This document shows positions 1 through 50,147 of a DNA stretch of 64,000 bases, piece by piece; the first letter of the stretch is position 1; every line of letters starts with the position of its first letter. The position numbers were made by a program, and so were the translations under genes. The stretch is from an uncultured euryarchaeote. Its GTDB lineage: Archaea; Thermoplasmatota; Poseidoniia; Poseidoniales; Poseidoniaceae. The notes beneath the pieces are model-generated. The model saw only the letters and a program-made list of their open reading frames with translations. It had not been told where the DNA came from and did not search any database. The stretch is from assembly GCA_937915175.1 (NCBI GenBank), contig CALDNA010000023.1, forward strand, positions 4,713 to 68,712, read 5' to 3'.

Positions 1-185
1 CAGGGAACCTTGACTCTAGAACATCCGCCGAAGTTCTCGCTTTGTTAAAACGAATCAATACGGAACACCAGACTACCTTCCTCATTGTAACGCACGATGC
101 CAGCATTGCTGAGTTGTGCGATCGAGTATTGCACATGGAAGACGGACTGATCATCAGCGATACATTGAGGACAGAGGAGGAATAG
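1..185 (+). CDS. ABC transporter ATP-binding protein, LolD/MacB-like (3' end only, truncated by window)
   Basis: Frame from nt 3 reads GNLDSRTSAEVLALLKRIN...FLIVTHDASIAELCDRVLHMEDG...EEE* (TAG 183-185). It shows the D-loop GNLD and H-loop VTHD of LolD-type ATPases. Not in the ORF track. Confidence 0.9.
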   Translation, partial: GNLDSRTSAEVLALLKRINTEHQTTFLIVTHDASIAELCDRVLHMEDGLIISDTLRTEEE

Positions 186-190
186 TCCTG

Positions 191-3100: not shown

Positions 3101-4792
3101 TTCGGAGCAGGAACGCTTTGCCTCGCTTTGCTTGCTGTTGTTGGATTGAACAGCTCGTTTGCATATTTTGCTTGGGTCGTCGCCGGAGTTTGCTATCTGA
3201 TTTGCTTGGTTCCCGCAGTTACCTTAGAGGTGCCAACACTTTTGCGCCAACGCTCGAAGAGGTGGTCGAATCTTCACCGTCATGCTGGACGTAATACCCT
3301 TGCTGCGCTCGGTTTTTCCCTTCTCATTTGGACGGTCGGGCTTCATTCGTTTGATCCTATTCGAAAAGGCATGACGCCCGATGAGTTGTCGTTCATCGTC
3401 TTAGGCCTTGTCGAAGTGTTCGCCGGCGTTTTGCTGCTGACAAGCGCTGCACCAGTTCTCGTTGGCCGGCTTGGCAAGTCGAAAATAATGACCAAGCGGT
3501 TTGGACCTGTGTTGCCCGTTGCCCTTGCCCACCCATTGGCTGCGCCGGTGCGCACAGCGGTGGTGATGGGTATGTTCTCGATTACGGTGTTCTCGGTCAT
3601 CGTGCTCAGTGGGTATGCAGAACAATTCGATAACTACTCCAGTTCCTTTGTCGAAGAGGCTGAAGGGGAGTATGAACTCCTGTTGACCGGTTCTCGGGCT
3701 CGACCGATCGAATTGCCTGATTCACCCGAAGAGTGGAATCTTTCCTCACCCGTGGCATCCTCCATTGATTCAGTCGCTCGCATTCACAGAAGCCAGGTGT
3801 TCTTGGAGAACAGCGAAGGCGATAGAATGCCCTACCTTCTAAGGGGCTTCGATGAGAACTTTTCCGATCACGGTGGATTGCCATTATACCAGTGGGATAA
3901 GAGCCTTGGCGCAACCGCAACCGAGGCATGGATGACCGTTGGCGCACGCGAAGATTTGGTGATCTTGGATGCCTCCTTTGGACTTGAATCCATAGCCGAT
4001 GGAAGCGGTTTTACCATGCTTAGTTTTTCAATTGGAGAATCAATTTCGCTAATTGATACCTCGAACCCAGGAAACACTCGAAATGTCAAGGTTGCAGGGT
4101 TCATGGAACAATCTTCATATCTGTTCTCAGCAGGTGTTTGGATCTCTGATGATGTGGCCATCGAACAGTTCGATGGGCGGCTGACGCGAATGTATGTGAG
4201 CGTTGACGATTCTGCTCAACCATCGGCTGAATTCGAAGGCAGTCAAGGGGCCTCTTCTCCGATTGGGAAATCATCTGATGTTCGAAGCGCATCGGCGGAA
4301 CTCGCCGAAGATTTGGAACGCTCCCTCAACAGCGAAGGCGTCCAAGCCTCAGTCATCGCCGAAGACGTGATGGTGATACAATCGCTCGTCCTAGCGCTAT
4401 TGGCTATTTTTGAGGCTTACTTGTCGCTCGGGTTGATTGTTGGTATCGCTGGAATCGGGGTGGTCACGGTGCGCTCTGTGTCAGAACGGACCAAAACCAT
4501 CGGCGTGCTTCGTGCTCTAGGTTACAAACGAAGCATGGTGATGGCCACCTTCATGGTGGAAGTGGTTTGGGTCGCGGTCTTTGGAATGCTCAACGGGGTA
4601 CTCATAGCCATTGGTTTCCATAGGGCCCTTTACGACACTTTTTGGAAAGATCAAGGGGCAGTGTTCAGTTTGCCGTATGACTCAATTGTTGGGGTGTTGG
4701 TCGGAGGCCTGGTGATGGTGTTGCTTGCAACAGCATATCCAATTCGAAAAGCCTCGATGGTCCCACCATCGGCAGCGCTACGTGAAGCATGA
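191..4792 (+). CDS. FtsX/MacB-like (type VII) ABC transporter permease with two permease repeats and large extracellular domains, ~1533 aa
   Basis: Motifs RRKRQAALLMIGLII..., EARRSELGTLRSLGM and SERTKTIGVLRALGY; C-terminal PIRKASMVPPSAALRE. Start moved from 116 to TTG 191, which follows GAGGAGG and the upstream stop codon. Confidence 0.88.
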   Translation: MLPLILLSFTLAVVAGAATWNLTRSHSVSLGPAVVLVVAPVADGCVAYLVLQWCSITGATGFVGALSFGLLSMIFIQPLLVPQRLVVWTIAKETVLRRKRQAALLMIGLIIASAIITSSLVVGDSLDATVQSEVEAEWDQTDITIGGLDLSTGERVLLKERVASDLWRLIEQDATIQTEVTGQQQGLIAGASIESAARSIPTVTWLAFNGSIDASGIWPGLGGSSGTTYGAIELINGEERPLSVVINKVLAEELSLVAGDGVELGWYITTEGKRERVTQNATIIQVVKNTGQAALAGTTSPAMFTDLATAQRLQGVGDKINTVHYAVASSHENAAAIKPIVETIERHLDEVLKAEDVGLELDFEASTSSLSVSSSIGLGRISGDDLLALRGNISEFGMASMLEVLQVPLIEFNYDDEALLTLSSAGITNLDAGNRGLWHATGTGFGVQIDGAGEAWMWRVPDGGSVNGFSLSSDGLFGAVAHDGGLLVGSENELDDEFYAQYEAQGQFHALAANQMGWWAIESTDTTLYLHSFSNDLSTHEQRAINIDVPSKILGVEFSVDQGMHLEIEGLLSVERYAAPQVSLGSNFTPFSNGEWPSFESNVASVDLHERCDGSASISLFIPVQHWCSFNGGLLRWDAASQAVDSVRIPVLSSAGGFGTMPQMLLAFGGADAPFVVENQTVLISQRLSDLNLTAGTSDFWMKGLIPYAFGDDTAYRLTNAGYYTDVEGLEGLSELDGVVLGLISLTDAEQLASAAENERNLVVLSPAVEGDDSSLPMLQAWFDERATAEDVNLNVRAVKVEAAALAAESSGVLAGMFLVFGSFTIAAGVLLVLTIVLMLAEARRSELGTLRSLGMSQSDVRSLAVMEGSMIAGVSGIVGAVVGLGLAWFISIGFQSMFSSVGEDVPFLFEWTMSSIFAGWAWGFLLALITLWSTAVWTARTNIVVALRGGREARSDSVSWMLVLMQIIFFGAGTLCLALLAVVGLNSSFAYFAWVVAGVCYLICLVPAVTLEVPTLLRQRSKRWSNLHRHAGRNTLAALGFSLLIWTVGLHSFDPIRKGMTPDELSFIVLGLVEVFAGVLLLTSAAPVLVGRLGKSKIMTKRFGPVLPVALAHPLAAPVRTAVVMGMFSITVFSVIVLSGYAEQFDNYSSSFVEEAEGEYELLLTGSRARPIELPDSPEEWNLSSPVASSIDSVARIHRSQVFLENSEGDRMPYLLRGFDENFSDHGGLPLYQWDKSLGATATEAWMTVGAREDLVILDASFGLESIADGSGFTMLSFSIGESISLIDTSNPGNTRNVKVAGFMEQSSYLFSAGVWISDDVAIEQFDGRLTRMYVSVDDSAQPSAEFEGSQGASSPIGKSSDVRSASAELAEDLERSLNSEGVQASVIAEDVMVIQSLVLALLAIFEAYLSLGLIVGIAGIGVVTVRSVSERTKTIGVLRALGYKRSMVMATFMVEVVWVAVFGMLNGVLIAIGFHRALYDTFWKDQGAVFSLPYDSIVGVLVGGLVMVLLATAYPIRKASMVPPSAALREA

Positions 4793-8511: not shown

Positions 8512-11500
8512 ATGTTGGGAAATAAGAACACCAAGAGAACGTCAGTCTTCAGCGGCATTGGCATCGCACTGCTGTTGTGCGCTTTGATGGCCCTAATGCC
8601 TATGGCTGGGTTCGTCGACAACAACGCAGGCGACGTGGACTTTGTAGATACAAAGACCACAGCAGAGAATGATTTCTTTGCACTGCCAGAAGCTGTGAAG
8701 ACAACTGACTACGAACACGAACCATCCGATGAACTGATCGGCATGAGAGACCAAACGACCAAGACCTACATCACTGAAGATGGCAAGTTTGCGCAGCTAA
8801 ACCACGCTACGCCAGTCCACTTCATGGATGACAGCGGTGCATGGGAAGACATTGATTTGAATGTCGTCGCAACATCCAACGGTTGGGAAGTAACCGATAA
8901 CACCTACAGCACACATTTCGCTCCTGAAATGGCCTATGGTGTTGCGGTTCAACCAAACCAGTTTGTTGATCCTATCATCACTGGAATCGCACCAATGATC
9001 GTAACCCTGGACGAAACTGGCACTGCGCCACAACCGTACCACGTCGCACCTTCTGAAGAAGGCGTGACCGTTGGCGGTAACGTTCTACGGTACCCGATTG
9101 CAGAAGGCTTTGACCTCGACTACACCGTCGAGTCAACGCAACTCAAGCAGAACCTCGTCATCCGCGAGCGACCTGTGCTTGAGCCAAACGCTGCTTGGTT
9201 CGGTCTTTCGGAAACCATCCAAATTCCATCTGGTTTTGCACTCTACCTCGGCGACGAAATGCTCGGCGAAGACATGACGCAAACTCAGGAATCCCTTGAA
9301 ATCCGTCACATGGAAACTGGCGAACTGCTTGCAGAGATCCCAGTTCCTACCGTGATTGAAGAAGGGTCCGATGAACCATACACGGCTACCTACTTCATCC
9401 AAGTTTTCGGCCCACAGGTTGTCATTACGACAGCAGTGGAAGCTGACTGGTTGATGTCCGATGACCGTGTTTTCCCGCTTGCTATTGACCCGACCATCAA
9501 GGTCTACAGCAACGCTGGTGGTTACTGCTACCGCTACTACCGCAACTGCTACTCGAGTTCCTACCGGTACACGTACAAGTACTACTCGCAGATGCGTTAC
9601 ATGCCATGGCACCGTTACACATTCACTTCGAGCAACGCTCTTCCATCCGGCGCCACTGTTGACGCCATCAGCTGGAAGTCCTACCTCAACTACCGCTCCG
9701 GCTCGACCTCAACGTCAGTCACAGCAACAGTTCTCGAGAACTGTGGCTCACCAACGTTGTCATCCTACAGCCACACGATGCCGACTGGCACATGTTCAGG
9801 CGCACTCACCGCAAGCCAGATCCTCACTGGAAGCAGCTACAACTCTGCCGCTTCTCGCCGAATGATCACTTCCTTGTGGAACAGTCCGTCCTTCGACACG
9901 TACTCCATTGGTAGCAACGGTTGGAAGACCGCTGACATTTGTACTTCTGCTACAACCTGTGCTTCTGGCACAGCAGCAGGGTACATCACCTCGGCTCAAA
10001 CCAACGCTGGTACCGTCGGTATCGGTCAAAGAGTGTCTGCCTCGACTTACCTCTACAGTTACACACTGAACAGCGGTTCGTCGAACTCCTACATCCAAAT
10101 CACTTACTCTGGTGGTTCAGATACGGACGCTCCTCTATCGAACTTCGTTCCATACTCTGACGTGACTTCGTACGTTGAAGGTGCTCGCACATTCTTCACG
10201 ACCTTCACTGACATGTCTGGAATCGACACCACCACTGCTAACGCACCAACGCTCAACTACGCACTCAACAACGGTTCGTACACAAGCGTCGCCGCAACTA
10301 GCATTGGTACCTGCAGCGCAACATCGTCCGAGTGCCAATTCAAGGCTACAACGGCGACAATCTCTGCTGGTGACTACGTCGAGTACTACTGGAAGTTCCA
10401 AGATCTTAACACCGCTGGCGGTGCTAACGTTGGATACGACCCAGCCCTCACAGGTTCGCAAACCACTCCAACACCTTACTACTTCGCAGTAGAAGATGTT
10501 GCAGATGCTGGAGACGACAAGAAGCTCACAGTGAAGACAACCGATGTCCACGCTGCTGCTTACTACTCGCCTGGCGCTAACCAATACTTCGACCGACAGA
10601 TGACTCACTTCGACGGAAGCAACGAATACTACTTCGAATTCGACACCTCGTCTTGTGGAACCGGTAGCAACTCTTGCTTCTACTCCTCGTCGTACTACTT
10701 CTACTCGAACTGGATTGTTCAACACACAACAACCGCTTCGTCTGGATACAACGGTATGGGTGGAACCCGGTCGAACATCGACCAACTGCACTCTGATGAC
10801 GGTGGATACCTCACCATCTCTGCTGCAAATGGCCCTGGAATGAACCTCATGTACCTCTATGACAGTTCCAGCAATGCGTTTGCAATGGTCGGAATTGGAA
10901 CCTCGACTTCGATCTCTGATTCGTTGTCCGGCGGAACCTCTGCTGACAGCAGCCGGTCCTATGGTTACACCAATGCATACAAGATCACGCTCGGCTCCGA
11001 TTACGGCGGCATGTTTGGCAAGTTCGGATTCGGAAACGAAACCGCCGGTGCTGGAACAAACGCCAACCGACTTTGCGTGACCAGCAATGGATTCACCTAC
11101 TTCTGGCGCAGCCCATACAGTTCCTACAACGACTGCTCTCCTGCTTACTACTACGCTGGTGCCTACTCTGGTGTCACCAACTACAAGTGGAGCGGATTTG
11201 CTCTCGGTATGGGATACTACGGCCGAATCGCCTCAACCGGCGATGTCACCTACAAAATTGGTAACGTTGCACCAACACCTGATACGTTCAAGCCTGAATT
11301 CACCCATTCTGCGCTCGCTGATTCCCACAGCAAGGACCGAACGATCTCCGCAACACTTGCCGATGCAGGCGACCCACCAGCAGGTCTCAACGTGAGCACC
11401 TCTGCAGGCGTTGGTCCAACAATGTACTACCGTGTAACGCCTGATGGCGGCTCCGCTGGTTCTTGGACCTCTGTTGTCATGGCTCAAGAGTCTGGCAGCA

Positions 11501-14500
11501 CCCGTGCAGAATGCCAGTTGTCGAACTGTGACTGGTCCGCTGATATCGAAGACCTAGAACGTGGAGACTTTGTTGAATACTACATGAAGGCTCAAGACGT
11601 TTCTGCAGTCGCAGGCGGCATCAACACCCAGACCACCTCAACCGAGTCTTTCTCGGTCGGTGATCCAAACAAGATGTTTATCGTTGAATGGCGAGACATG
11701 GGTTACTCCACCACGGACACCTGTACTTACCAAGCTGTATTCTATGACGTGACAAACGAAATCGAATACAAGTACGACGATGCTTGTACCAACTCGTACG
11801 ACGCAGGAACCGTTGGTTTCATGGATCAAACACGAACCATGGGACAAACCATCCGTCATCGTACCAGTACCCAGTACATCACCGGAACGAACCCCCACCC
11901 AGCCAACTACCGTATCTCGACATCCTCGACCGGTAGCAGCTACGAGTCTTTCGACCGTGGCCTCTCTGGCTTGGTGAATGCAGATGCCTCTGGCATCATG
12001 GGTTCCTCTGCTGGTACACCGTCTGGCTACTACTGTGCATCCAACTACTACTGGAACACATGGGCTAACAAGTGCGCTGACAACATCGCAATGCCTGATG
12101 GATTCAACTTTACCTACTTCGGTACAGATTACAACTACACTGACACCAACGACCGTATCAACCTCGGTCGACATGGTAACATGCACTTTGTAAGCTCTGG
12201 ATCCACTGCACTGGTTCGCAGCATGACCACATGGTATGGAAACATGCCTGAGTTGCCGTACTCGTCGAGCACCTACGCTCGTGCAGGTACAATCGCACCT
12301 TACTGGTCGTACTACGGTACTTACTACTGCTACCAAAACAGCAACCTCGACTGTGGTGTTTACTACCGAACCATGCCTTTCGAAGGCAAGGGAACAGACG
12401 TGAGTTCTGACATCACCCAAGATACCACTTGGGATTTGGAAGACAGCCCAATCCGTGTCAACCCAAGCAACGACTACCTCACCATTTCTGCAGACTTGAC
12501 CATCCAACCTGGTGTTGTGATTCAAGTCGCAGCTGGCAAGGGAATTTCGTTTGATGGAACATGCGACCAAATGACCCTCAACGGCAACAGCACCGACCCA
12601 ATCCTCTTCGAGGGTGCAGACGGCGCTGAGTGGACTGGAATGGCATTCACCGCTGCTTGCGCTGCAGGCACCGATGACCGTCACGTCTTCTCTTACGTTG
12701 ACTTCAAGAACACAACTGACGCTGCAATCTCCGCTGGTTCACGCCACGGTTCTTCGCCAAGCACCAACTCGAACGTTGGAAACTTCACGATGGACCATGT
12801 GACATTCACCAACGTTGGATCTGCTTTCTCACACGGAAGCGGACAAGGCACAGTTGTTTCCATGAGCGACTTCAACGTCGATGGGGCTTCTTCGTCCTGT
12901 TTCGACTTCGCTGAAGACACCATGGCTACATTGACTGAAGGTGTCATGAAGGACTGTAACACCGACGGCAACGCCGGCGCTGGTGCAATCGTTAACGTTG
13001 CAGGTTCCACTGGTGGATCGTTGTTCCTTGAGAACACCACCGTGACCAACGCATACGTGAACCTCATCGATGTAGACTTCGCAACCGTGACAGTTAGCAA
13101 CGTAACCGCTACAGTCACGACTGTTCTACCAGGTTCTTCCACCACCACCCAAACCGGAAGCGCATTCGCTTCCGCAGCAGGCAGTGGCAGTGAAGTTACT
13201 TTGTTCAACTTCGACGCTGATGACTACGCTACTGTTTCGATTGAAGCAATGGACGGAATCTCAATGAAGACTGTTGACTTTGGACCTGCATCCTTGACCA
13301 TGACCCCTGGTGGCACATCGAGTACAGGAAACGGACCATCCGGCGACAGCGCTGTCTTTGACGACGTGACCGTTGGTAACACCGCTATGACCCGTATTCA
13401 ACCAGGTACATTTGACAGCGTCACCATGGGAACATTCACCATGACTGGCAACGCAATCACCTCGAACTTGGTTTCCATGAACAACATGGAAGCTACGAGC
13501 GTTTCCTTGAACGACTGTGGATGGAACATTCACATGAACAGTGTAACCGCAACCGGTTTCAGTATTCTTGGATGCTCTGCTGCACCTTCCAAGTTGACCA
13601 TCGAGAATGCAGACATCACCCACAGCAACACGGTTAATCCAATGCTCTACGCACGATACGCTACTGTGACTGTTGGTCAATCTGACGTGACAACCTCGGG
13701 TACAGGCCTTGCAGACTTTGCATACGCTGACACCAACGCTGATGTCCGTTTGATTCATGTCCTCGTTGACGGAGCTACCTCCGCCTACGATGGATCTGAT
13801 GGCAAGGTCTCAACCTCCAGTTCTTCGGAAATCTGGTATGGTGGACTTGCAAGCGCTTACACCTACCGTAACGCACTCATCAACGGTGTCGCTGCGATTG
13901 TGTACAAGTCGGGGCATTACGTCTCGGCTACGCTTGTTGACTCATCTGGCTCCGAAATCTTCGAAGTTGGGTCTCACATCACCGATGCAACGGGCATGGC
14001 CACAGTTTGGGTCATTACTGGTGACGAATCTGGTAACTCTTACGACGACCACAACTTGCGAGCATTCGGTGCAGCAGGACAGAACGAAACCCTTCACACG
14101 GATTCATGGTACCCTACAGACGGTACCTACACCGTGGGAGACACAATCGATCTCTTGCTTGAACCCGCTCCTGTGGAATTCGACGCAGCAGGTATGGACT
14201 GCGCATGGATTGCGGCTAACACAACCCTTGCTACGACCTACAACGCTGGATTGAATGCATATGTCTTTGACAGCACGCCAATGACCTTGGCAGCAGATCT
14301 TGAACTCGATGGATGCAACATCATCCTCTTGGGATCGGTCCTAAAGGTTCGAAGCACAGCAACAAGCACCCCTTGGTTGAACATCTCTGATGGCGGTTCG
14401 CTTACGGTTACCATTTCACCTGACACCGGCGCAGTCGGCGAAGTGAAAGCAATTTCAAGCACCTATGGACTCCACATGGATATCCAAGATGGTACGCTCG

Positions 14501-17500
14501 AACTTGACGGTGGAACCCTACGTGATGTCGCTCAAGACTCCGCTACTGGCGCTGCCCTCATGGTCAGCGACGGTGCTACGTTCATCATGAAGAACAGCGC
14601 TACAGTTTTCGGCGCTACCACTGCGAACTCTGAGATGGCTACGGTCAAGGTAATGGGTGGAACTGTGAACATCGCAGACTCCAGCATTATCAACTCCAAG
14701 CAAGCAGGATCAGGTACCGGAACCGCCCTTTGGGTGGAAGCCTCTGGTGGTACCATCGAGAACGTGATCGTGAAGAACGCAGCTGTGGGTATCCAATCCT
14801 ACAACGGCGCTCCACAGGTTGACGGATTCACCTCGACTGACAACACCGTTGGTGTCGACGTCTACGGTGGTATGTCACTCCCAACCGTTTACCGCAGTAC
14901 TTTGCTCAGCGGTGAAAACACTGGTTGGAAAACCTACAAGATCGACTTGTCGACCTACCTCTCGGAAGACTACCTCCAAGTTGGCTGGAACAGTATCTAC
15001 GGTGGCGGAAACGCTCACCCAACATACAACTACGCTACCTCGAAGTACTACATGATCACTGACCGATACAACATTGAATTGGAAGATGACAACGGCAACG
15101 CCTGGAACATCACTGATTCATCTGACCTCGGTTACTACCCATACAGTGCTGCAGACCCAGCATCCGGCGTCGGTTCAACCGCTGCCTACGCTGCTGGTGC
15201 TACCGGTGGTGTACCAAGTTGGTCGTGTGACTACTACGGTTACTCGTACGGACCAAACTATCCATCGAGCTTTGAGGGCTACTTCTACTACATGTGGCGC
15301 TACTGGCCTGGTGGTCCCGGAACGACCCCGTCTTACCCTGCTTACTACCAAGCTCCTTCTGAGTTCGGTTTCGGCTGGGAAAACATTGACGGCGTTAGCC
15401 CAACTGGTTCCTACGCTTACTACCCGTACCACTACTGGGGTTACTACTACACCTCTTACCACGGTGGTACCAACGGACCATTCACGCCTCCTGAAGGCTA
15501 TGGTGGCGGATACCCATCCAGTTACAACGTCTGCCTTGACTATGCGTACTCATACTACATGAGTCCAGGACAAGGTGCCCGTTTGACCATGCCTACCGTT
15601 GACATCTCGGCTTCGAACATCTCGAAGGTTTCGCTGTACATTGACGTCCTGCACAACCGTGCTGACAACTTCCAAGATCGCTTGGAGTTTGTCGCTCGTT
15701 CAGGCAACGATGCAAGCACCCTTGGTGATTACGTCCGAGAATCTGGTACGCCTATGTTCAAGGATGGTTCCATCACTGGAGCTGAAAATGGTATTGAAAT
15801 TGGCGGAGCATACGCTGCAGGTTCTTTCGAGAACATCGCGGTCACCTCCCCAACCGATGCCGGTCTTGAAGTGACAGGTCAATCAGCAGCAACTGTTGAC
15901 GGATTGGAAGTGAACGGCGGCACATACGGTGTCCTCGTTGGCAGTTCTGCATCCGGTTCAATTGAACTTGCTAACCTCGACCTTGACAGCCAAACCTCGG
16001 CTGGTGTTTACTACGCTAAGGACATCTCTGGAGATGTCACAGGTACGGTCACCAACAGCGCAGGTGCAGCGTTCAAGTACGGACAAAACACTGACAACCC
16101 TGTCGCGATGTCCGGCATGACGATTTCGACCAACGCAGTTGGTATCGAAACCGCTGGCTCAGGTGAGTTTACACTGACCGACATGACCATGGCGAATGGC
16201 AAGGACTTTGCGATCAGCGGAAGTTCGATGATTGAGTTCATCGAAGGAACCGTCGATGTTGATTCCGTCGATGTCACAGGCTCAGGTTTGTTCACCCGTA
16301 TGCGTACGGTTGACGTGACCCTCACTGCTGACTCGAATCCAGTCGCTGATGCTACTGTTACCCTCCTTGACGCCGATGGCGGCGCAGCGGGTGCAGCACT
16401 CACCAACTCGATGGGTGTAGCAAACGACATTACCTTCGTGACCGCTACTGTGGACAAGGCCGGAAAGACCATTCCATCGCTCAGTGGATACAAAGCAATG
16501 ACCGTTGCAGAAGTGTTCTACAACAACACAGTTGCTGACTTCCGTTATGCTAGCACTGGCGTTACGCTCAGCGATGCATCTGGAAACGCAGAGTCAGTTG
16601 CTCTGACGACCAAGATTGCACACCGTGTTTGCTGGTACTCTTCGAGCACCGCATACGATACTGTTTCACCTTGTTCAGGTTCGTTCTCGACTTCGGGATC
16701 CCGAACCCTAAGCGACGGTGATGGCGGTACTGTGACCGAATACGGTTACTATGGTGGTGTTGGAGCGAACCTGGCTAACCAGATCGTCATGGTTGACGTT
16801 CCGTACATCTACCTCAACGGTAACACGGATTACAACTTCAACGGTTCGACTCTGCTTTCAACTGGCGTCTATGATTTCTACGGAAATCAACGCTGGTACA
16901 GCAAGAGCCCTGGTGGCAGTGGATTCTACATGAACGACGGTGGCCTCTACGGTGTCGCAGTTGATGAAGACACAAGCGAACCTTACGGTATCCAACTTGG
17001 TGACTACTTCTACAGCATGAACAACTTTGTTGCAAACAACTCGATCTTCTCGAATGTCGCAACGATTGATATCGCGAATGGATATAATTATGCAAATAAT
17101 TACGAATGGGAAGTCGAAACTTTGGCGCTCACCAACTCGACGATTACGCACTACAAGGGTTACACCTCGTTGAACAACGCTATCCAAGTCTCCGACATCT
17201 GCATGCAGGTGTCTGGTGGTGACAGCGGTCTCATCCACGGTAACACCTTCAACAACTGTGGTGTTGGTATCATGCTTGAGCGTGCGACCTACTACAGTTA
17301 CCACAACGGTGTGGTCGGCGCAGACAACATCACCATCTCTGGTAACACGTTCAACGATGGTGGCGAAATCGCCGACATCTGGGCATACACCAACGGTGAC
17401 GCTGACTTCGCAGAGATCTCTGGAAACACCTTCAACTCTGGTGATACCAGCAACGGTGCAGTTGCATTCTACCCTGGTGACCATGAAGGTGCAATCATTG

Positions 17501-20500
17501 CGGACAACACGATCAACACTCTGAAGAGCGGTATCTACATGGTGAACGCCCTTGACTTCACAGTCTCTGGCAACACCATCAACGGTGCCGGCGACTCAGC
17601 ATACGCTGGTGTCGACATCAACGGTGGCTATGGTGACGTGACAGGCAACACATTGATTGACGCTGACGGCGGTATCGTGCTTGACTCGATGACCAACCCT
17701 CCAGCGCCAACCAGTTCGCTTTGCACCATCCGAGCCTACAGTTACTCGTCTGGACCTACAACCTGTGTTGTGACCCTCGCTACAGGCAAGGTCATGGCAG
17801 TTAACGTCCAGACTGATTCGTGGGGCTATGAAGCAAGCATCACCATCGACAAGCCTGACGGTACGACTGATTCGTGGCCAACCAATACGTTCGCAAGCAA
17901 CACTGCTTACGAACCACTGGCCTCATACAGCGATGCTGGAAGCTACACGTTGACGCTCCGTGACTCATACGGTGACGGTGGTACTGATGTCTTCATGGTT
18001 GAAGGCGGCGCTGCTGGCGGCTACACTGGCCCAAGCATTGCTGACAACACCATTGAGCTGTCCGCTGGACGTGTTGCTCCAAACGCTATCGGTCTCCTTA
18101 TGGAAGACTGTGCTGGTGTGACGATCAACTCGGCGAACAACTCCGTGACCCTGTCTGACGCTGCAATGGTTATCAGCAACTGTGACGTTTCTGATGTTGG
18201 CTCCACCCTCCAAGGAGATGGAACTGCATCCACCAACGGAATTGACGCTGACGACCTTAACGGTGACTCCCTGACCTTGTCGGGCACCACCGTGAGCGGC
18301 TACGAAAACGGTGTGACCAAGACGAGCGGTGCACTTTACCTCACTGGCGATGCTTCCCTCACTGGTACCTCATACGGTGCCTACGTGGATGACGCAACCG
18401 TGAGTGCAATCACCGCTAACGTCGATGGTGGCGCAACTGGAACTGGACTCTATGTCATCGACTCCGATGATGTTTGGGTTTACCCAATGAACGCCTCTGG
18501 ACTCGTCGGTATGTACGTCGAAAACTCTCCGTTCCGTTGGGACGGAGGCTCGGTTGATGCAACCACTGCTCTTGAAGTCGTGGAAGCACAAGGTACTGTT
18601 GAAAACATGACCTGGACCGCTTCGACCAACCAAATCAACGCTGGCACCAATGCCTACGTGACCTCGATCGGTAACACGATTGACGCCTCGAAGTTGATTG
18701 TCGATGCATCCGCTACCATTGATGAAGCAAACTTGTTCTCGATGAGTTCGACCCACTTGACTGCTGCTCCTACCAAGGAAGTCAGCATGCTCATTCAGTC
18801 GACCGACGGGTCTCGTGCTTCCTACGTGTCCACAAGTTTCCAACCTGAAGTCATGAGTATTGACGGATCGATGGACGACTGGAATGGCGGAAACGACCTC
18901 AACCCATCTGGCTATGCAATGCCAGGTATCATGAGTGGCGACGGAACCAGCGACATGGGAGTTACCTACATTGAAGGCGACGACCTGTACTTCGGTCTAA
19001 GCGGTGTTGATCTCTCAACAAGCGACTTGCTCATCTACCTCAGTGTCGATGGCGCAGGAAGCAGCGTTGGATACAACCTCGGTGGAGCACACAACTTGCC
19101 GTTCCAAGCAAACTACGTGCTTTGGGCAGACAGTGAATCCTCCTACGACTTGTACAGCTACGGCTTCCTCGGTTGGGGCCCAACTTCACTCAGCACCGCT
19201 GCAGTGGACATGGACTTCTCGACTGACTTCGCTGAGATTTCTATCCCATTCTCTCGAATGGGTGGAACACCTAGCCAAGTTGACATCGTGGCAATCGTTC
19301 AAGGCGAGACCACCGCTGATGTGAGCACGGTTCACCCGACTCAGACCATCGACGCCAGCAACACCATCCAGTCGTTCACCGAATACATGACCGTCGAGCT
19401 AACGCACGACGATTTGACCTCCGGTGCAATCTCTGACGAAGTGCTTGTGTACCGCTCCTACAAGGGCAGCAACACACCAAGCGTCGCCAAGAACTACGAC
19501 GTGATGATCAAGACCGAAGCAGACTGTGCCTACGATTGGGCTACAACTGAAGACGTCTCACTTGCTACCAACGTCAACCTGAACATGGACATGGCCCGTG
19601 CCTGCCCAGAAATTCAGGCTGAATTGGCTGACGTGATTGTTGACGAAGACTCTGGTGCTTACACCTTCAGCCTGACCAACATGGCTGACGACGTGCAAGA
19701 CGAAGAGGCGAGCCTCTCGTGGGTCTCGACCTCCGGAAACATTGTCGCTCACGCCAACGTACTCGTTGACTGGGCTCAGAACGGACACACCGTGACCATC
19801 ACACCAATGGACGACCAATTTGGTACCATGGACTACGAGTTCACTGTGACTGACAGCAACGGATTGACCGACACCAAGAACATCTCGTTCGAGGTTCTCA
19901 ACGTCAACGACGCACCTGTGATCTGCAACGTGGAACAAACTGACTGCTTGCCAATCTTCTCTGAAGACGACGCCTACACCAACATCTTGGCTGAAGGCTT
20001 TGGTGTGCACAGCAAGTTCCTTGGAAACGTGTCAAACGCTTCCAAGTCCTACATCCGTGACATGGCTAACGAGCAAACGCCCGACCGCCAAGTCTACGAT
20101 TGGGATGCAAGCATTCCTGCTGACTGTATCGCATTCACTGTTGAAGTGAACGCACTGAACGAACTTGTGATCACCGAGAACACGAACAACGAACTCGGTG
20201 GAACCTGTACGGTGACCCTCACCCTGGCTGACGACGCTGCTGCAAACAGTGAAGCAACTCCTTACGAAGTTGCCTTCTCCGTTGCTCCAGTGAACGACGC
20301 ACCTGTTATCCCAACATGGGACCGACAGAACGGTACGGTCATGGAAGCCGGAAACGGCTCCATCCCTGCAGCACCATGGCAGATCAGCTTGATGGAAGAC
20401 GACTTGTCGACCGAGAACTTGACCTACGACCTAAGCTCCGTGATGACAGATGTTGACCACAACCTCTCTGACCTCACTTGGACCGTTGAGCCAACGTCTC

Positions 20501-22065
20501 AATGTGCTTACACGAACTACTTCACGACAACCATCGTTGTGGACAAACTCGTGTTCACACTGATTCCTGACGCAACGACCAACGCTAAGGATTGGGAAAT
20601 CGATTACCTCAACGACAACGGTATCCACCAAATCGGACCATCTGGCTCCGAGTTCTGTAAGATCCGCTTGGTCCTCGAGGACACCGCAACAGCCCCAAGT
20701 TACGTGCCAAACTACGACACCACCTTGATGCCAATCGCAGCCTACCAACAAGGCCAAGATGACATCGAAATCGGTGTCCGTGTCGAAAACGTTCGTGAGC
20801 AAGTCGCTGACTACTACCTAGACAGCCTCTCTGGCTTCGACTTCAACGGCGTGACCAACATCATGACAGGCACCTACGTGCCGGTTACTGTGAAGGTCGG
20901 CGCTGGTGGCGACGAAGGACCGTTCACCTACGATCACATGCTTGCTGTGACCTTCCACTCGGACGGCCACACTGAGGACGAGCAAACTCGATACTACACC
21001 GTTCCATCCTATGGAACGAATGTGGCCTTCGACGAAATGGTCTACATCACCAAGGACACCACCAATGTGTGGGTTGAAATGGATGTTGTGACTTGCTTGA
21101 ACGACCCATGTGACTTGACTGCAGCAGTTTCGGACCGCTTCCAGACCGACGACCCAGCATCCCACCGTGCCAACAACAACGGCATCCAGGGCGCTGACTG
21201 GTCCAAGCCTGGACAGTACGGTAGCAACGCTACTCAGACCTCCGAACGCCGACCACTTCTCGAAGACAGCAACTGGTGTAACAACCGAATGACGTCGCTC
21301 GAGAATGGATCCGTCTGTAACCACGCAAACCAGCCACCTGCTAACTTCGAAGCTACTGGACAACCGCTACCAAGCGTTGTTCGTACAATCGGAGCCAGCT
21401 CGGTCCCATCGTTCGCACCTAGCATCGTTGTGGTCAGCCTCACCGGTCTCTTCGTGAGCGCACTTGCCTTCTCCAGCCGCCGTGCTGATGATGAAGAAGA
21501 AGTCGCCGAGACCATGGTTGACAGTGACGTCGCAGTGAGCCCAGTGATTGCTACCATCTTGATGGTCGCTATCACCGTCGTTCTCTCCGGTGTGATCTAC
21601 GTTTGGGCAAGCAGCCTCGCTGAAACTGACGTCAAGGGTGTTCCTCGGATCACCTTCGACATCGAGGACATCGACGGCTTTGATGCTGAAACCGGTCACT
21701 GGCGAATTACCGTGCAGTCGGCTGAAACCGACTTGGCTACACAAGCAGTTGTGCTCCGTGTGATCTACACAGACGCTGATGGAAACACAGCGATTGAAGA
21801 AGCGAACATGGCGGACACGAACGGTGTCTACGGGTTCAACCCCGACAACAGTGATGCATTCATCACCTTTGTCGACCAGGTGAACAAGGAAGGAAGCGAC
21901 TCTGTCTCGACCTTCAATACCGGAGACACCATCTTCGTGCGAACCCACGCACCTGATGGCACGCCATTGACTGAAGTGACAATCACTCTATCCTACGCTC
22001 CAAGCGTTGGACAAGGTGCGCTCCTGCGCTCCTGGACTGGTTTGTCATACGACGTCAAGGCTTGA
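8512..22065 (+). CDS. Giant secreted adhesin-like protein, 4517 aa: WapA-like N-domain, DNRLRE-like domain, Ig + NIDO-like units, beta-helix repeats, DOMON/CBM9-like and cadherin-like domains, TM anchor, C-terminal archaeal type IV pilin
   Basis: Uninterrupted 13.5-kb ORF with strong codon bias and an N-terminal signal peptide. Motifs [15 protein letters not shown] and FPLAIDPT; beta-helix rungs ([22 protein letters not shown]); [8 protein letters not shown]; VNDAP x2; [25 protein letters not shown] near the C-terminus. Confidence 0.88.
   Translation: [4517 protein letters not shown]
21403..21483 (+). other. Internal PGF-CTERM-like sorting/anchor segment (VPSF + TM helix + RR)
   Basis: [27 protein letters not shown] has the motif-TM-basic layout of archaeosortase substrates, with PSF instead of PGF. 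Confidence 0.5.
21514..22065 (+). other. Archaeal type IV prepilin module (class III signal peptide / Pilin_N-DUF1628-like) inside the giant ORF
   Basis: [35 protein letters not shown] closely matches the [21 protein letters not shown] archaeal pilin H-domain. It is followed by a ~150-aa beta-rich globular domain. Confidence 0.85.
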
Positions 22066-28732: not shown

Positions 28733-30121
28733 TCAATCTTCTTTGACTCGTCCGAGGTATTCTGGCAGTTCTACACCAGCCATCTTGGCAACATCGTGCA
28801 CAGGTGGGAGGCTTTGCATCAACGAGGAGATGAAGTTGGAAGTGGATCCGCCTTCGCCGTTTGCGCCACCGTTTCCGGAGTCCCAAACGGTAATCTTGTC
28901 AATCTTGAGGTTGGAGATTGCTTCAGTTTGTCGTGCAACCAATTCTTCCATCTTCTCGACCATGAGGAGTGTGGCAGCAGCCTTTGCATCGCCACCAGCG
29001 CTTGCCACGAGCTTTTGGTATCCAACTGCCTTTGCTTCAAGCACGGCTCTGGTACCTTCTGCTTCTGCTTGGTATCGAGCGAGGGTTGCATCGGCTTGTC
29101 CCCTTGCGATTCGGCGTTGTCGCTCTGCTTCTGCTTCCGCAGCGATTTCGACAGTCTTCTTCGAAACTTCTTCACGAACAACTTCCAAAGCGCGCAATCG
29201 CTCGCCTTCGAGTTCATACTGAGCGGATTCGATATCCTTCTGTGCGTTACGCTGAGCGACTTCAGCACGCTTTCGCGCATCGGCTTGCTTGACAATGAGG
29301 TCTGCTTCAAAGTCAGCAATTTCTGCGGCAGCAACGTTTTCACCTTGCTTACCCATTGCTTCTTGCTGCATGACGAAAACACGTCGGTTGACTTCTGCTT
29401 CCTTCTGGCCCTTTTCGGACTCAGCGGAGTTTTGTGCAACACCAACTTCACGCTCTCGGTCTGCCTTGGCCTGACCAAGTTCACCAGTCGAGCGAGCAAT
29501 GGCGGTCTCCACGAGTGCTTCGTTGACAGCGGTTTCTGCGGCTTTGGTACCAATCGATTCGATGTATTGTCGCTCGTCGGTGATGTCGACCACGTTGACG
29601 TTGATGAGGTAAAGTCCGAGCTTGTGCAGTTCTGTGTCGACGTTGGTAAACACAATTCGTAGGAATGAATCACGGTCCTGGTTGACTTGCTCGATGGTGA
29701 GCGAAGCAACGGTCAATCGGAGTTGTCCGAAAATGATGTCTTCTGCAAGTTTTTCGATGTCGCTCTGTGGAAGGCCGAGCAGTCGAGTAGCAGCGTTCTG
29801 CATGATCGAAGGCTCAGTTGAGATTCCGATTGTGAACGATGAAGGGACGTTGATGCGGATGTTTTGCTTTGAAAGAGCGTGCTTAAGAGGGATGTTAAGG
29901 GTCATTGGGCGCAGTGACAAGTAGGCGTAGTGTTGAATCAAAGGCCAAACAATCTTTCCACCACCGTGGATACATTCTGCCGATTGTTTATTTTTCACGT
30001 TACCATAGACGACGAGAATTTGGTCAGATGGTGCGAGTTTGTATCTCTGAGTTGCAACATAGATTGTCCCGAGGAGTACAAAAAGGAAAAGTCCAATTCC
30101 GATTACGAATAGTTCTGCCAT
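28733..30121 (-). CDS. Flotillin (SPFH/band 7) protein, FloT/YqiK-like
   Basis: N-terminal TM; SPFH domain (ALSKQNIRINVP, IIFGQLRL, LGLYLINVNV); AE-rich coiled coil; KIDKITVWDSG and LPPVHD tail. Confidence 0.93.
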   Translation of the reverse strand: MAELFVIGIGLFLFVLLGTIYVATQRYKLAPSDQILVVYGNVKNKQSAECIHGGGKIVWPLIQHYAYLSLRPMTLNIPLKHALSKQNIRINVPSSFTIGISTEPSIMQNAATRLLGLPQSDIEKLAEDIIFGQLRLTVASLTIEQVNQDRDSFLRIVFTNVDTELHKLGLYLINVNVVDITDERQYIESIGTKAAETAVNEALVETAIARSTGELGQAKADREREVGVAQNSAESEKGQKEAEVNRRVFVMQQEAMGKQGENVAAAEIADFEADLIVKQADARKRAEVAQRNAQKDIESAQYELEGERLRALEVVREEVSKKTVEIAAEAEAERQRRIARGQADATLARYQAEAEGTRAVLEAKAVGYQKLVASAGGDAKAAATLLMVEKMEELVARQTEAISNLKIDKITVWDSGNGGANGEGGSTSNFISSLMQSLPPVHDVAKMAGVELPEYLGRVKED

Positions 30122-50108: not shown

Positions 50109-50147
50109 AGGGCATCTTTGATACAGGTTGAAGTGAAAGGGAGCGTC

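What the first reader, a model, noticed from the sequence alone, without database searches (positions are those of the whole stretch)
21403..22065. Giant adhesin fused to a complete type IV prepilin behind a PGF-CTERM-like anchor: candidate adhesin-pilin polyprotein
Seen: after ~4300 aa of extracellular domains the 4517-aa ORF has VPSF-TM-RR, an acidic linker ([15 protein letters not shown]), then VA/[24 protein letters not shown] and a globular tail, with no stop codon in between. Known: this hydrophobic segment is the archaeal class III (pilin) signal that PibD/FlaK cleaves on the cytoplasmic side, and it normally sits at the N-terminus of small proteins. Motif-TM-basic is the archaeosortase substrate layout, normally at the extreme C-terminus. 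Inference: the predicted topology (out, TM, short cytoplasmic loop, TM, out) puts the cleavage site A4341/V4342 where PibD works. One translation product could therefore yield an anchored giant adhesin plus a 176-aa mature pilin. Alternatives: the uncleaved pilin helix docks the adhesin into a pilus, or the in-frame ATG 21514 makes the pilin independently. The -2 residue is V rather than the usual K/R, so cleavage is not assured.
Basis: partly seen in the sequence, partly recalled or inferred. Interest (0 to 1): 0.88.

Follow-up and report, generated by a model that had tools for sequence, protein, structure and literature searches.

The report
Giant adhesin fused to a pilin
A 4,517-residue surface protein of an uncultured marine archaeon ends, behind a membrane anchor, in a complete type IV pilin; this conserved arrangement may show how these abundant plankton archaea couple a giant adhesin to a pilus.

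Summary
ORF 8512-22065 (+) encodes 4,517 aa with three hydrophobic segments: an N-terminal signal, TM1 (PSFAPS-TM-RR), and, 19 residues later, a pilin helix that passes the pilin HMMs.

It is no artefact. Contigs of four independent runs cross the junction without indels. The same TM1-linker-A|VSPVIAT-pilin junction lies in stop-free frames in 40 of 61 Poseidoniales genomes from three families. A second protein family in another class has it too.

The in-frame ATG is not conserved (16 of 62 tails). Residue -1 is Ala in 62 of 62, and the acidic -3/-4 context matches this lineage's stand-alone pilins. The helix is 95% conserved, TM1 74%. The genome holds a FlaK/PibD-like peptidase, archaeosortase A, a second unclassified archaeosortase-family gene, and pilus ATPase and platform genes. 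The PGF-CTERM HMM fails.

New here: the pilin's globular domain is predicted to bind the adhesin's last extracellular strand (ipSAE 0.80, best control 0.01). Natural paralogs join these two parts directly, without the hairpin.

Best reading, about 0.5: a precursor cut by the prepilin peptidase, whose pilin acts as the adhesin's adaptor. Cleavage is unproven, and an uncleaved hairpin anchor remains a serious rival. I rate it a new variant of a known kind, of high interest.

The parts
8512..22065 (+). Whole gene: 4517-aa precursor made of a giant ectodomain, TM1, a cytoplasmic linker and a prepilin
   Evidence: Orthologous open frames of 4238-5507 aa at 21 places, G000 included.
8536..8622 (+). 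N-terminal hydrophobic segment (residues 9-37) behind a basic start ([10 protein letters not shown]): a Sec-type signal or signal anchor. This puts the following ~4260 aa outside the cell (inferred).
   Evidence: hydropathy scan; sequence
20845..20883 (+). Residues 4112-4124 ([14 protein letters not shown]) of the membrane-proximal domain: first patch of the predicted interface with the pilin domain
   Evidence: chain 1 residues 28-38 and 40. T37 and P40 are invariant in alignment A2.
21373..21405 (+). Residues 4288-4298 ([11 protein letters not shown]): last extracellular strand of the adhesin and second patch of the predicted interface
   Evidence: chain 1 residues 204-214. V206 and V214 lie in it and are invariant; invariant L202 and P203 lie just before it (A2). 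The strand is kept in the hairpin-less paralogs.
21406..21423 (+). PSFAPS juxtamembrane motif (residues 4299-4304). The family pattern is [PAT][SG]F-x-P-[STG], and distant homologues read PGF.
   Evidence: It is the only such motif-TM-basic site in the own genome. The PGF_CTERM HMM is not met.
21421..21477 (+). TM1 (residues 4304-4322, [19 protein letters not shown]): stop-transfer anchor
   Evidence: Mean identity to 61 other distinct tails is 74% (minimum 26%).
21478..21534 (+). RR plus an acidic cytoplasmic linker (residues 4323-4341) ending in the class III site context D-S-D-V-A. It contains the non-conserved ATG 21514-21516.
   Evidence: Ala at -1 in 62 of 62; D/E at -3 in 60 of 62; D/N/S at -4.
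21535..21624 (+). Pilin N-terminal helix (residues 4342-4371, [30 protein letters not shown])
   Evidence: Pilin_N and TIGR02537 above their cut-offs. Mean identity 95% (minimum 83%) among 61 other tails. It matches the own genome's stand-alone pilin on C18 at 28 of 30 residues but only 70 of 90 bases.
21625..22062 (+). Pilin globular domain (residues 4372-4517): beta-sandwich
   Evidence: AlphaFold mean pLDDT 75.3. Foldseek's three best hits and hit 6 are archaeal filament subunits. It aligns with stand-alone pilins and is the partner in the predicted complex.

Best explanation
The gene encodes a single precursor. The N-terminal signal sends about 4,260 residues of ectodomain out of the cell, and TM1 (PSFAPS-TM-RR) stops transfer. 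A 19-residue loop (RR plus acidic residues) stays in the cytoplasm. The pilin helix then re-inserts with its N-terminus inside, so the 146-residue pilin domain is also outside. All of this topology is inferred.

The loop ends in this lineage's own prepilin cleavage context, (D/E)(D/E)xA|VSPVIAT. I think the genome's FlaK/PibD-like aspartyl peptidase most likely cuts it at A4341|V4342 (inferred). The freed 176-residue pilin keeps an N-terminal helix almost identical to the stand-alone pilins of the same genome, so it can pack into the same type IV filament (inferred).

The pilin's globular domain is predicted to clamp the adhesin's last extracellular strand and a nearby loop (model only). The pilin would therefore be the adhesin's built-in adaptor to the pilus or its assembly platform. 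This works like the minor-pilin/PilC-PilY1 link in bacteria, except that adaptor and adhesin are made as one chain. How, or whether, TM1 is later removed is open.
For: 1. The fusion is real and old.
- 40 of the 61 genomes searched (G000 included) have a match running from TM1 through the pilin. That is 42 places, none with an internal stop, in families f1 (31 of 36), f2 (2 of 2) and f3 (6 of 22). 21 places lie in open frames of 4238-5507 aa.
- 45 more loci come from named Poseidoniales MAGs, including the MG-II chromosome CM001443.1.
- A profile search lists 27 of its best 150 representatives with the whole pilin profile more than 150 residues into the protein. Among them is a second family (P0220-P0255) with a different ectodomain and a basic linker. 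That family lies in another class of the phylum, in family f36, where G137 and G196 each hold two paralogs.

2. The site is conserved. Among 62 distinct tails, -1 is Ala in 62, -3 is D/E in 60 and -2 is free (9 different residues). Stand-alone pilins of the lineage read [10 protein letters not shown] in 12 of 14.

3. The helix is constrained far more than an anchor needs to be. Its mean identity is 95%, against 74% for TM1 and 57% for the linker. It matches the own stand-alone pilin at 28 of 30 residues but only 70 of 90 bases, with a longest exact run of 8 bases. This points to selection on the protein rather than gene conversion or chimeric assembly.

4. The tail is a whole pilin. It aligns end to end with stand-alone pilins. 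Its model has a helix at 3-32 followed by beta strands, and the best PDB matches are the Oxyplasma, M. maripaludis and Cuniculiplasma filament subunits (E 6.6e-5 to 1.5e-4).

5. The machinery is present.
- The peptidase lies at G000:C58:4875-5864. Pfam Arc_PepC_II gives 28.0 bits (E 3.3e-6), and 31.6 bits for an orthologue against a cut-off of 29.9. A profile of six orthologues hits FlaK 3S0X at E 3.2e-5, with GGAD aligned to FlaK's GGGD. D28 and G159-G160-A161-D162 are invariant.
- Four T2SSE and five T2SSF matches were found.

6. Binding is predicted. Complex prediction scored 0.80 (runs 0.78, 0.80, 0.81) against a best control of 0.01. That mark was reached by 58 of 80 solved complexes and 2 of 110 mismatched pairs; these counts hold only roughly here, because my own alignments were used. 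The runs agree in at least 90% of contacts, and the partner's pLDDT is at least 86.

7. There is independent support for the interface. Six proteins (P0115, P0145, P0181, P0192, P0215, P0168) join the same proximal domain and LPxVV strand directly to the pilin beta-sandwich, with no TM1, linker or helix.
Against: - No call shows cleavage.
- In Poseidoniaceae the linker is acidic (net -7), and its only basic residues lie 17-19 positions before the site. Stand-alone prepilins have K/R in their short leaders.
- TM1 would keep the adhesin in the membrane, so any display on a pilus needs a further, unshown step.
- The hairpin-less paralogs show that the beta-sandwich can serve as a plain stalk domain with no pilus role.
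- The peptidase evidence is borderline in the own genome. PF01478 gave no match at E <= 0.01, Arc_PepC_II is 1.9 bits under its cut-off, and NCBIfam FlaK scores 21.4 bits against 330.
- No pilus assembly gene lies next to the gene in the window. The C18-type pilin in G020 lies at ORF 9974-10477 of L138, but its neighbours there were not scanned, so that context is untested.
- The RNA-library contigs cannot exclude a separate internal transcript.
- The complex score is a model's confidence, and the two parts are tethered in one chain anyway.
Confidence: 0.5

Rival explanations
1. Uncleaved hairpin anchor. The pilin-derived helix is only a second transmembrane segment. The beta-sandwich is only a cap at the base of the adhesin stalk. 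The protein has no role in a pilus, and the class III features are inherited and kept for membrane insertion.
For: The hairpin-less paralogs use the same beta-sandwich as an ordinary ectodomain module. TM1 anchors the adhesin regardless. The linker before the site is acidic, unlike usual leaders. No pilus genes lie nearby. The predicted interface is equally expected for a purely structural domain pair.
Against: A mere anchor should drift as TM1 does: TM1 is 74% conserved (minimum 26%), while the helix is 95% (minimum 83%) and stays near-identical to the lineage's true pilins. Ala at -1 is kept in 62 of 62 tails and the acidic -3/-4 in nearly all, although the rest of the linker varies. The second family keeps G/A at -1 with a basic, leader-like linker.
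Confidence: 0.28
2. Two products by separate expression. The pilin is made on its own from an internal promoter and start codon (ATG 21514 in this window), and read-through from the adhesin frame is incidental.
For: M4335 would give a 7-residue leader, MVDSDVA. Contigs from RNA libraries cannot show transcript starts.
Against: Codon -7 is ATG in 16 of 62 distinct tails and otherwise CTC, CTT, CTG, CTA, TTC, ATC, ATT or ATA. Codon -2 is ATG in 21. 17 of 62 have no Met in the last 22 residues. No stop separates the frames in any of the 42 places. No Shine-Dalgarno-like GGAGG or GGTG lies before ATG 21514.
Confidence: 0.05
3. Artefact: a lost stop codon, a frameshift or a chimeric assembly joined an adhesin gene to a pilin gene.
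For: A paralogous pilin sits at a contig end in the same assembly (C18).
Against: Four independent runs cover the junction without indels. 40 of 61 genomes share it. The paralog shares at most 8 consecutive bases with the helix region.
Confidence: 0.01

Closest known systems
Archaeal type IV pilins with class III signal peptides (Pfam Pilin_N PF07790, NCBIfam TIGR02537), including the stand-alone Poseidoniales pilins found here
   Same: The HMMs match above their cut-offs. The mature N-terminus VSPVIAT... and the DEA-like site context are the same. The fold is a helix plus a beta-sandwich. The globular domain is homologous, at 22-32% identity.
   Different: The signal lies 4,341 residues into the protein, behind another transmembrane segment, instead of within about 30 residues of the start. 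The 'leader' is an acidic loop. Databases already name fragments of these proteins 'type IV pilin' or 'FlaG/FlaF family flagellin'. The names listed there say nothing of the signal's position.
Bacterial PilC/PilY1 pilus adhesins, linked to the core minor pilin complex by beta-strand augmentation of a C-terminal tail (Kingella kingae; PMC13711793, abstract read)
   Same: A large adhesin whose C-terminal extracellular strand is predicted to insert against the beta-sheet of a pilin's globular domain.
   Different: No sequence relationship was found: Pfam gives no PilY1-type hit. Here the adhesin and the pilin are one gene product separated by a membrane hairpin, and the adhesin has its own anchor.
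Modular type IV pilins with bulky extra domains, such as Streptococcus sanguinis PilB (10.1101/2021.01.27.428410; search listing and start of abstract only), and the Poseidoniales pilin-LTD proteins P0118 and P0123
   Same: An adhesive module and a pilin module in one polypeptide.
   Different: In those proteins the pilin comes first and the extra domain follows it on the same mature chain. Here the order is reversed and the two parts lie on opposite sides of a predicted cleavage site.
PGF-CTERM proteins and archaeosortase A. The family concept is recalled from Haft and colleagues and was not read here; the HMMs used are TIGR04126 and TIGR04125.
   Same: The layout is a short motif, then a transmembrane segment, then a basic cluster. 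ArtA is present (97.5 bits, cut-off 75). True PGF-CTERM proteins occur in the same genome. Distant homologues of the fusion read PGF at this position.
   Different: TIGR04126 does not match: there is no hit for the window, and the best homologue scores 8 bits against a cut-off of 24.5. The motif is PSFAPS, with a second conserved Pro. 194 residues follow the basic cluster instead of a stop.
[quoted passage not shown]
   Same: Large adhesin-like proteins associated with archaeal type IV filament systems.
   Different: Those adhesins are separate genes inside the loci. The passages found for 'fusion', 'fused' and 'internal' describe no adhesin-pilin fusion and no internal class III signal.

Membership tests
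Archaeal type IV prepilin (class III signal; Pilin_N) | Match to PF07790 or TIGR02537 above the curated cut-off | tested here: met
   35.8 bits against 25.2, and 36.4 bits against 20. In the whole protein the score is 30.4 bits at residues 4341-4385.
Archaeal type IV prepilin (class III signal; Pilin_N) | Signal at the extreme N-terminus, behind a short, positively charged leader | tested here: not met
   The site follows residue 4341. It is preceded by TM1 and an acidic loop of net charge -7.
Archaeal type IV prepilin (class III signal; Pilin_N) | Small residue at -1, followed by about 20 or more hydrophobic residues | tested here: met
   Ala at -1 in 62 of 62 distinct tails. Hydrophobic segment at 4338-4370.
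Archaeal type IV prepilin (class III signal; Pilin_N) | Cognate A24-type (PibD/FlaK) peptidase in the genome | tested here: inconclusive
   A candidate lies at C58:4875-5864. Arc_PepC_II scores 28.0 bits, under the 29.9 cut-off, while an orthologue scores 31.6. A profile hits FlaK 3S0X at E 3.2e-5, and the Asp and GGAD motifs are invariant. PF01478 itself was not detected at E <= 0.01.
Archaeal type IV prepilin (class III signal; Pilin_N) | Cleavage by the peptidase and incorporation into a filament | not testable with these tools
   Needs biochemistry, proteomics or cryo-EM.
Archaeal type IV prepilin (class III signal; Pilin_N) | Pilin fold: N-terminal helix plus a beta-rich head | tested here: met
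   The model has a helix at 3-32 and ten strands, with mean pLDDT 75.3. Ranks 1-3 and 6 in the PDB search are archaeal filament subunits, although the TM-scores are only 0.37-0.38 by query length.
PGF-CTERM sorting signal (ArtA substrate) | Match to TIGR04126 at 24.5 bits or more | tested here: not met
   Not among the genome's 7 matches at E <= 10. No hit for the 38-aa TM1 segment.
PGF-CTERM sorting signal (ArtA substrate) | P-G-F tripeptide directly before the transmembrane segment | tested here: not met
   The window reads P-S-F, and orthologues read PSF, ASF or TSF. PGF occurs only in distant homologues: P0134, P0138 and L132.
PGF-CTERM sorting signal (ArtA substrate) | Signal at the extreme C-terminus | tested here: not met
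   194 residues follow the RR. The signal would become near-terminal only after the proposed peptidase cut.
PGF-CTERM sorting signal (ArtA substrate) | Archaeosortase in the genome | tested here: met
   ArtA (TIGR04125) scores 97.5 bits against a cut-off of 75, at C16:17024-17878. A second family member at C43 scores 34.1 bits on TIGR04178 against 23, and fits no subfamily.
PilC/PilY1 pilus-tip adhesins | Homology to the PilY1/PilC family | tested here: not met
   Pfam at E <= 1 gives only Pilin_N, a weak PKD_4 and a weak CueP.
PilC/PilY1 pilus-tip adhesins | C-terminal strand that docks on a pilin's globular beta-sheet | tested here: inconclusive
   Predicted only: ipSAE 0.80 against 0.01 for the best control. 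Supported by the hairpin-less paralogs.

The most novel reading that the evidence does not exclude
Dual processing makes a self-loading pilus adhesin. The prepilin peptidase cuts at A|VSPVIAT on the cytoplasmic side. An archaeosortase-family enzyme cuts at the conserved P(S/G)FxP motif on the outer side; this could be ArtA or the unclassified paralog at C43, whose genus-level distribution equals that of the pilin system. Together the two cuts would excise a TM1-linker peptide of about 40 residues. What remains is a non-covalent complex of the 4,300-residue adhesin and its own adaptor pilin, held by the strand seen in the model. This complex would enter the type IV filament as its first (tip) subunit. 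That would be an archaeal counterpart of PilY1, made as one chain with its minor pilin, and the first internal class III signal known.
Probability: 0.2. Interest if true: 0.92.

Novelty: new variant of a known kind. Interest (0 to 1): 0.8.

Why it matters
Class III signal peptides are treated as N-terminal features. Pilin finders, and the census papers I searched, look for them there. Here a complete one lies 4,341 residues into a protein, behind another membrane segment. It is conserved across the order Poseidoniales and recurs in a second family in another class.

If it is cut, prepilin peptidases can process internal sites, and pilins can be delivered as the tail of a polyprotein.

It also gives a concrete, testable model for how Marine Group II archaea, among the most abundant archaea of the surface ocean, attach to particles. 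Rinke et al. inferred 'flagellar-based adhesion' from gene content (PMC6461757, passages read). They reported the flagella operon in all MGIIa genera and in half of the MGIIb genera. I see a similar pattern for this fusion: it was found in every MGIIa (f1) genus searched and in four of the ten genera of family f3.

The predicted pilin-adhesin interface parallels the bacterial PilC/PilY1 link to minor pilins. That would be convergent logic in a different domain of life.

Tried and rejected
- PGF-CTERM membership is rejected on the HMM. I keep only the resemblance in layout.
- Assembly chimera with the C18 pilin paralog is rejected (the longest shared run is 8 bases). For the same reason I drop my passing idea that the contig breaks at about 21558-21587 in three runs come from a repeat shared with that paralog. 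I leave them unexplained.
- Adjacency of an archaeosortase gene to the fusion gene was not found. In five genomes of families f36 and f46 there are 2-3 family members each, none on the contigs that carry the fusion genes. In the own genome the genes lie on other contigs.
- The co-distribution of the C43 archaeosortase paralog with the pilin system is identical by genus. It also coincides with large versus streamlined genomes, and kin are not independent, so I use it only as a lead.
- The context of the C18-type pilin in G020 was only listed as ORFs. I did not scan those ORFs for families, so nothing can be said about pilus genes there.
- Pfam on the ectodomain of this window's protein gave nothing significant. 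The word 'adhesin' rests on size, on NDAPV-type repeats, and on homologues. Homologues carry precomputed Pfam entries PF17963, PF17892, PF13229, PF05048 and PF00127; I recall these as Ig-like, cadherin-like, beta-helix, NosD and cupredoxin. They also give NCBIfam hits for parallel beta-helix, choice-of-anchor Q and cupredoxin.
- Literature: six searches, plus passages of PMC13705601, PMC4858521, PMC6461757 and PMC3119063, gave no description of an internal class III signal or of an adhesin-pilin fusion.
- RNA: contigs from RNA libraries hold the stretch. They show neither transcription nor transcript ends.

Full report
WHAT IS THERE

The window lies in a genome of Candidatus Poseidoniaceae (Marine Group II), judging by the record titles of near-identical loci. 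ORF 8512-22065 (+) encodes 4,517 residues.

A hydropathy scan finds only three hydrophobic regions:
- an N-terminal signal-like segment (residues 9-37);
- TM1 (within 4297-4323);
- a third region at 4335-4370.

Around the last two the sequence reads SSV-PSFAPS-[TM1][43 protein letters not shown]..., followed by a 146-residue tail and the stop.

The third segment passes Pfam Pilin_N (35.8 bits, cut-off 25.2) and NCBIfam TIGR02537 (36.4 bits, cut-off 20).

IT IS NOT AN ARTEFACT

Eighteen public runs hold the stretch. I laid four of them: three RNA libraries from three studies, and one DNA run from another study. Their contigs cover the junction without any insertion or deletion. One contig spans 21258-21751. 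The only nearby difference is a synonymous change, 21420 T>A (CCT>CCA, Pro4303).

A paralogous stand-alone pilin at the end of contig C18 matches the helix at 28 of 30 residues but only 70 of 90 bases, with no exact run longer than 8 bases. A chimeric join is therefore excluded.

THE FUSION IS CONSERVED

A search of 61 genomes of the order (G000 included), using the last 228 residues, found matches in 45.
- In 40 of these the match runs from TM1 through the pilin. That makes 42 places, none with an internal stop.
- 21 of those places lie in open frames of 4,238-5,507 residues. Most of the shorter frames are cut by contig ends. Four lie on long contigs with frames of 715-2,480 residues, which I did not resolve.
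- By family, the fused form was found in 31 of 36 f1 genomes, 2 of 2 f2 genomes and 6 of 22 f3 genomes.
- The five f1 genomes without it are 65-78% complete.

A scan of named genomes added 45 loci, among them the original MG-II chromosome CM001443.1.

Of the 86 loci examined, 83 have at least 100 residues of open frame upstream of the site. The other three are cut by contig ends. The 83 give 62 distinct tails.

WHAT THE COMPARISON SAYS ABOUT PROCESSING

Site context in the 62 distinct tails:

| Position | Residues |
|---|---|
| -1 | Ala in 62 |
| -3 | D/E in 60 |
| -4 | D in 52, N in 8, S in 2 |
| -2 | 9 different residues |

Fourteen stand-alone prepilins of the lineage read (K/R-containing leader)-[10 protein letters not shown] in 12 cases, DDA in one and DVA in one. 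None has K/R at -2.

The in-frame ATG of this window sits at a hydrophobic position, -7. That codon is ATG in 16 tails and CTN, TTC or ATH in the other 46, never GTG or TTG. 17 tails have no Met in the last 22 residues. A conserved internal start is therefore not supported.

Mean identity to the window's tail, by segment:

| Segment | Mean identity | Minimum |
|---|---|---|
| Pilin helix | 95% | 83% |
| Pre-TM1 segment | 78% | 29% |
| TM1 | 74% | 26% |
| Globular domain | 62% | 23% |
| Linker | 57% | 32% |

A helix that only had to span the membrane should drift as TM1 does.

THE TAIL IS A WHOLE PILIN

The tail aligns end to end with stand-alone pilins at 22-32% identity and shares their VYG, F-x-D and GD motifs. 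Its AlphaFold model has mean pLDDT 75.3, pTM 0.63, a helix at 3-32 and then beta strands.

In the PDB the model finds the Oxyplasma archaellum, the M. maripaludis archaellum and the Cuniculiplasma filament first (E 6.6e-5 to 1.5e-4). TM-scores are low (0.37-0.38 by query length), because the helix-to-head angle differs.

MACHINERY IN THE GENOME

PF01478 gave no hit in the own genome. Weak hits in relatives led to a conserved protein of about 335 residues, whose orthologue lies at G000:C58:4875-5864. The evidence that this is the peptidase:
- Pfam Arc_PepC_II scores 28.0 bits in the own protein and 31.6 bits in a relative, against a cut-off of 29.9.
- A six-sequence profile hits the FlaK structure 3S0X at E 3.2e-5, with GGAD aligned to FlaK's GGGD.
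- Asp28 and GGAD159-162 are invariant.

Also present:
- four secretion-ATPase matches and five platform-protein matches;
- archaellins;
- archaeosortase A (97.5 bits, cut-off 75), with true PGF-CTERM proteins in the genome;
- a second archaeosortase-family protein at C43 that fits no named subfamily (TIGR04178, 34.1 bits against 23).

None of these lies next to the gene. Its neighbours include a huge FtsX/MacB-like permease, another anchored surface protein, a HAD phosphatase and DNA polymerase subunit B.

THE ANCHOR

TM1 has the motif-TM-basic layout of a sorting signal, but the PGF_CTERM model does not match it. The other giant proteins of the window end in a plain TM-basic-acidic tail with no shared motif.

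Even so, the motif [PAT][SG]F-x-P-[STG] is kept in every fused form I saw. That includes the second family (TPSFAPS) and distant homologues that read PGFLPS, PGFVPS and PGFDPG. It occurs only once in the own genome. I treat it as a conserved juxtamembrane motif of unknown role that resembles a sorting signal.

TWO NEW OBSERVATIONS

First, complex prediction was given the last 215 extracellular residues (4085-4299, 32-row alignment) and the pilin head (mature residues 31-176, 42-row alignment).
- The score was 0.80 (runs 0.78, 0.80, 0.81), against 0.01 for the best of three controls.
- That mark was reached by 58 of 80 solved complexes and 2 of 110 mismatched pairs. These counts hold only roughly, because my own alignments were used.
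- The runs agree in at least 90% of contacts, and the partner's pLDDT is at least 86.
- The interface uses residues 4112-4122 and 4124, and the strand 4288-4298 directly before PSFAPS. It includes invariant columns T37, P40, V206 and V214 of alignment A2. On the pilin side it includes the conserved VYG patch.

Second, six natural proteins (P0115, P0145, P0181, P0192, P0215, P0168) join the same proximal domain and LPxVV strand directly to the pilin beta-sandwich. They have no TM1, linker or helix, and they carry their own C-terminal anchor. This is independent, Rosetta-stone-type support that the two parts sit together.

BREADTH

A profile search of 1.84 billion representatives gave 2,987 hits at E <= 0.001. 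Of the 150 listed, 27 carry the full pilin profile more than 150 residues into the protein.

Nine of these 27 belong to a second family of 794-2,382 residues with a basic, leader-like linker (...KKGRKDEDG|VSPVIAIILMVAIT...). That family lies in family f36 of another class of the same phylum, in genomes of 3.1-4.4 Mb. G137 and G196 each hold two paralogs. A further variant lies in family f46.

READING

Best explanation, about 0.5. The gene encodes one precursor, and the FlaK/PibD-like peptidase cuts it at A4341|V4342. The pilin then serves as the adhesin's adaptor to a type IV filament or to its platform.
- Shown: the architecture, its conservation, the site context, the presence of candidate enzymes, and a confident model of the interface.
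- Inferred: the topology, the cleavage, entry into a filament, and the fate of TM1.

Main rival, about 0.28. The hairpin is never cut and the pilin-derived part is purely structural. The hairpin-less paralogs and the acidic linker speak for this. The conservation of the helix and of the site speaks against it.

Separate translation I put at about 0.05, and an artefact at about 0.01.

The boldest reading not excluded, about 0.2, adds an archaeosortase-type cut at PSFAPS. That would free an adhesin-pilin complex for the pilus tip.

WHAT IS KNOWN

Source databases already label fragments of these proteins 'type IV pilin' or 'FlaG/FlaF family flagellin', so the HMM hit itself is not new.

I found no description of the position of the signal, of the fusion, or of the interface. 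This rests on six literature searches and on the passages I read of two censuses of archaeal type IV filaments and of the Poseidoniales phylogenomics paper. Supplements were closed.

Noticed in passing
window 40956-50108 and 50118-52787 (C-terminal tails); also P0115 and P0145: Several giant surface proteins end in TM, a basic residue and a long acidic cytoplasmic tail. The last ~40 residues of that tail are Trp-rich (for example ...TSWIQEHRVDDDGTEWAESEDGTWFYRQPDESEWSEWTD and ...SGWYVDVSSEVQYWNVGEDGSWSRVD). This may be a shared cytoplasmic docking motif.
   Followed up: no
G000:C43:24620-25678 (outside the window; L063 889-1956, minus strand): A 355-aa archaeosortase/exosortase-family protein (TIGR04178, 34.1 bits against 23) fits none of the named subfamilies. 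Among the 12 genera searched, its genus-level presence equals that of the pilin system, but it also tracks large versus streamlined genomes.
   Followed up: partly
proteins P0181, P0192, P0215, P0168 (hairpin-less paralogs): Their C-termini read (G/A)LPSIG-TM-(I)RR(E/D/N)... followed by a stop. This looks like a distinct short C-terminal sorting or anchor signal.
   Followed up: no
protein P0178 (3,527 aa): The globular part of the pilin profile (positions about 80-160) matches 23 stretches in this protein. The pilin-type beta-sandwich therefore also occurs as a tandem repeat module in another giant protein.
   Followed up: no
window 116-4792: A 1,558-aa FtsX/MacB-type permease with a very large extracytoplasmic insert (FtsX 96.9 bits, MacB_PCD 37.9 bits) lies directly upstream of two giant surface-protein genes.
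   Followed up: no
window 28733-30121 (minus strand): A flotillin gene (Band_7 plus Flot domains). Rinke et al. list flotillin among the adhesion-related genes of the group.
   Followed up: no
G003:C1, G009:C1, G019:C2, G033:C1: On these long contigs the open frame that ends in the fused pilin is only 715-2,480 aa, against about 4,500 elsewhere. The genes may be shorter, or the frame may be disrupted upstream. I did not examine this.
   Followed up: no
window 21558-21587 and 21823-21852: Contigs of three of the four runs laid break at the same places inside the pilin gene, while one RNA-library contig runs through the first. The own-genome paralog shares too little DNA to explain this. Strain variation is a guess.
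   Followed up: partly
G000:C56:53493-56576 (L004): Two adjacent genes encode large pilin-like proteins with class III-like starts (RRDDRA|VSEVLGV, 334 aa mature; RNEEA|VSAAVAT, 735 aa mature by the whole-contig scan, since locus L004 is cut). They may be minor pilins or assembly factors of another filament system.
   Followed up: no
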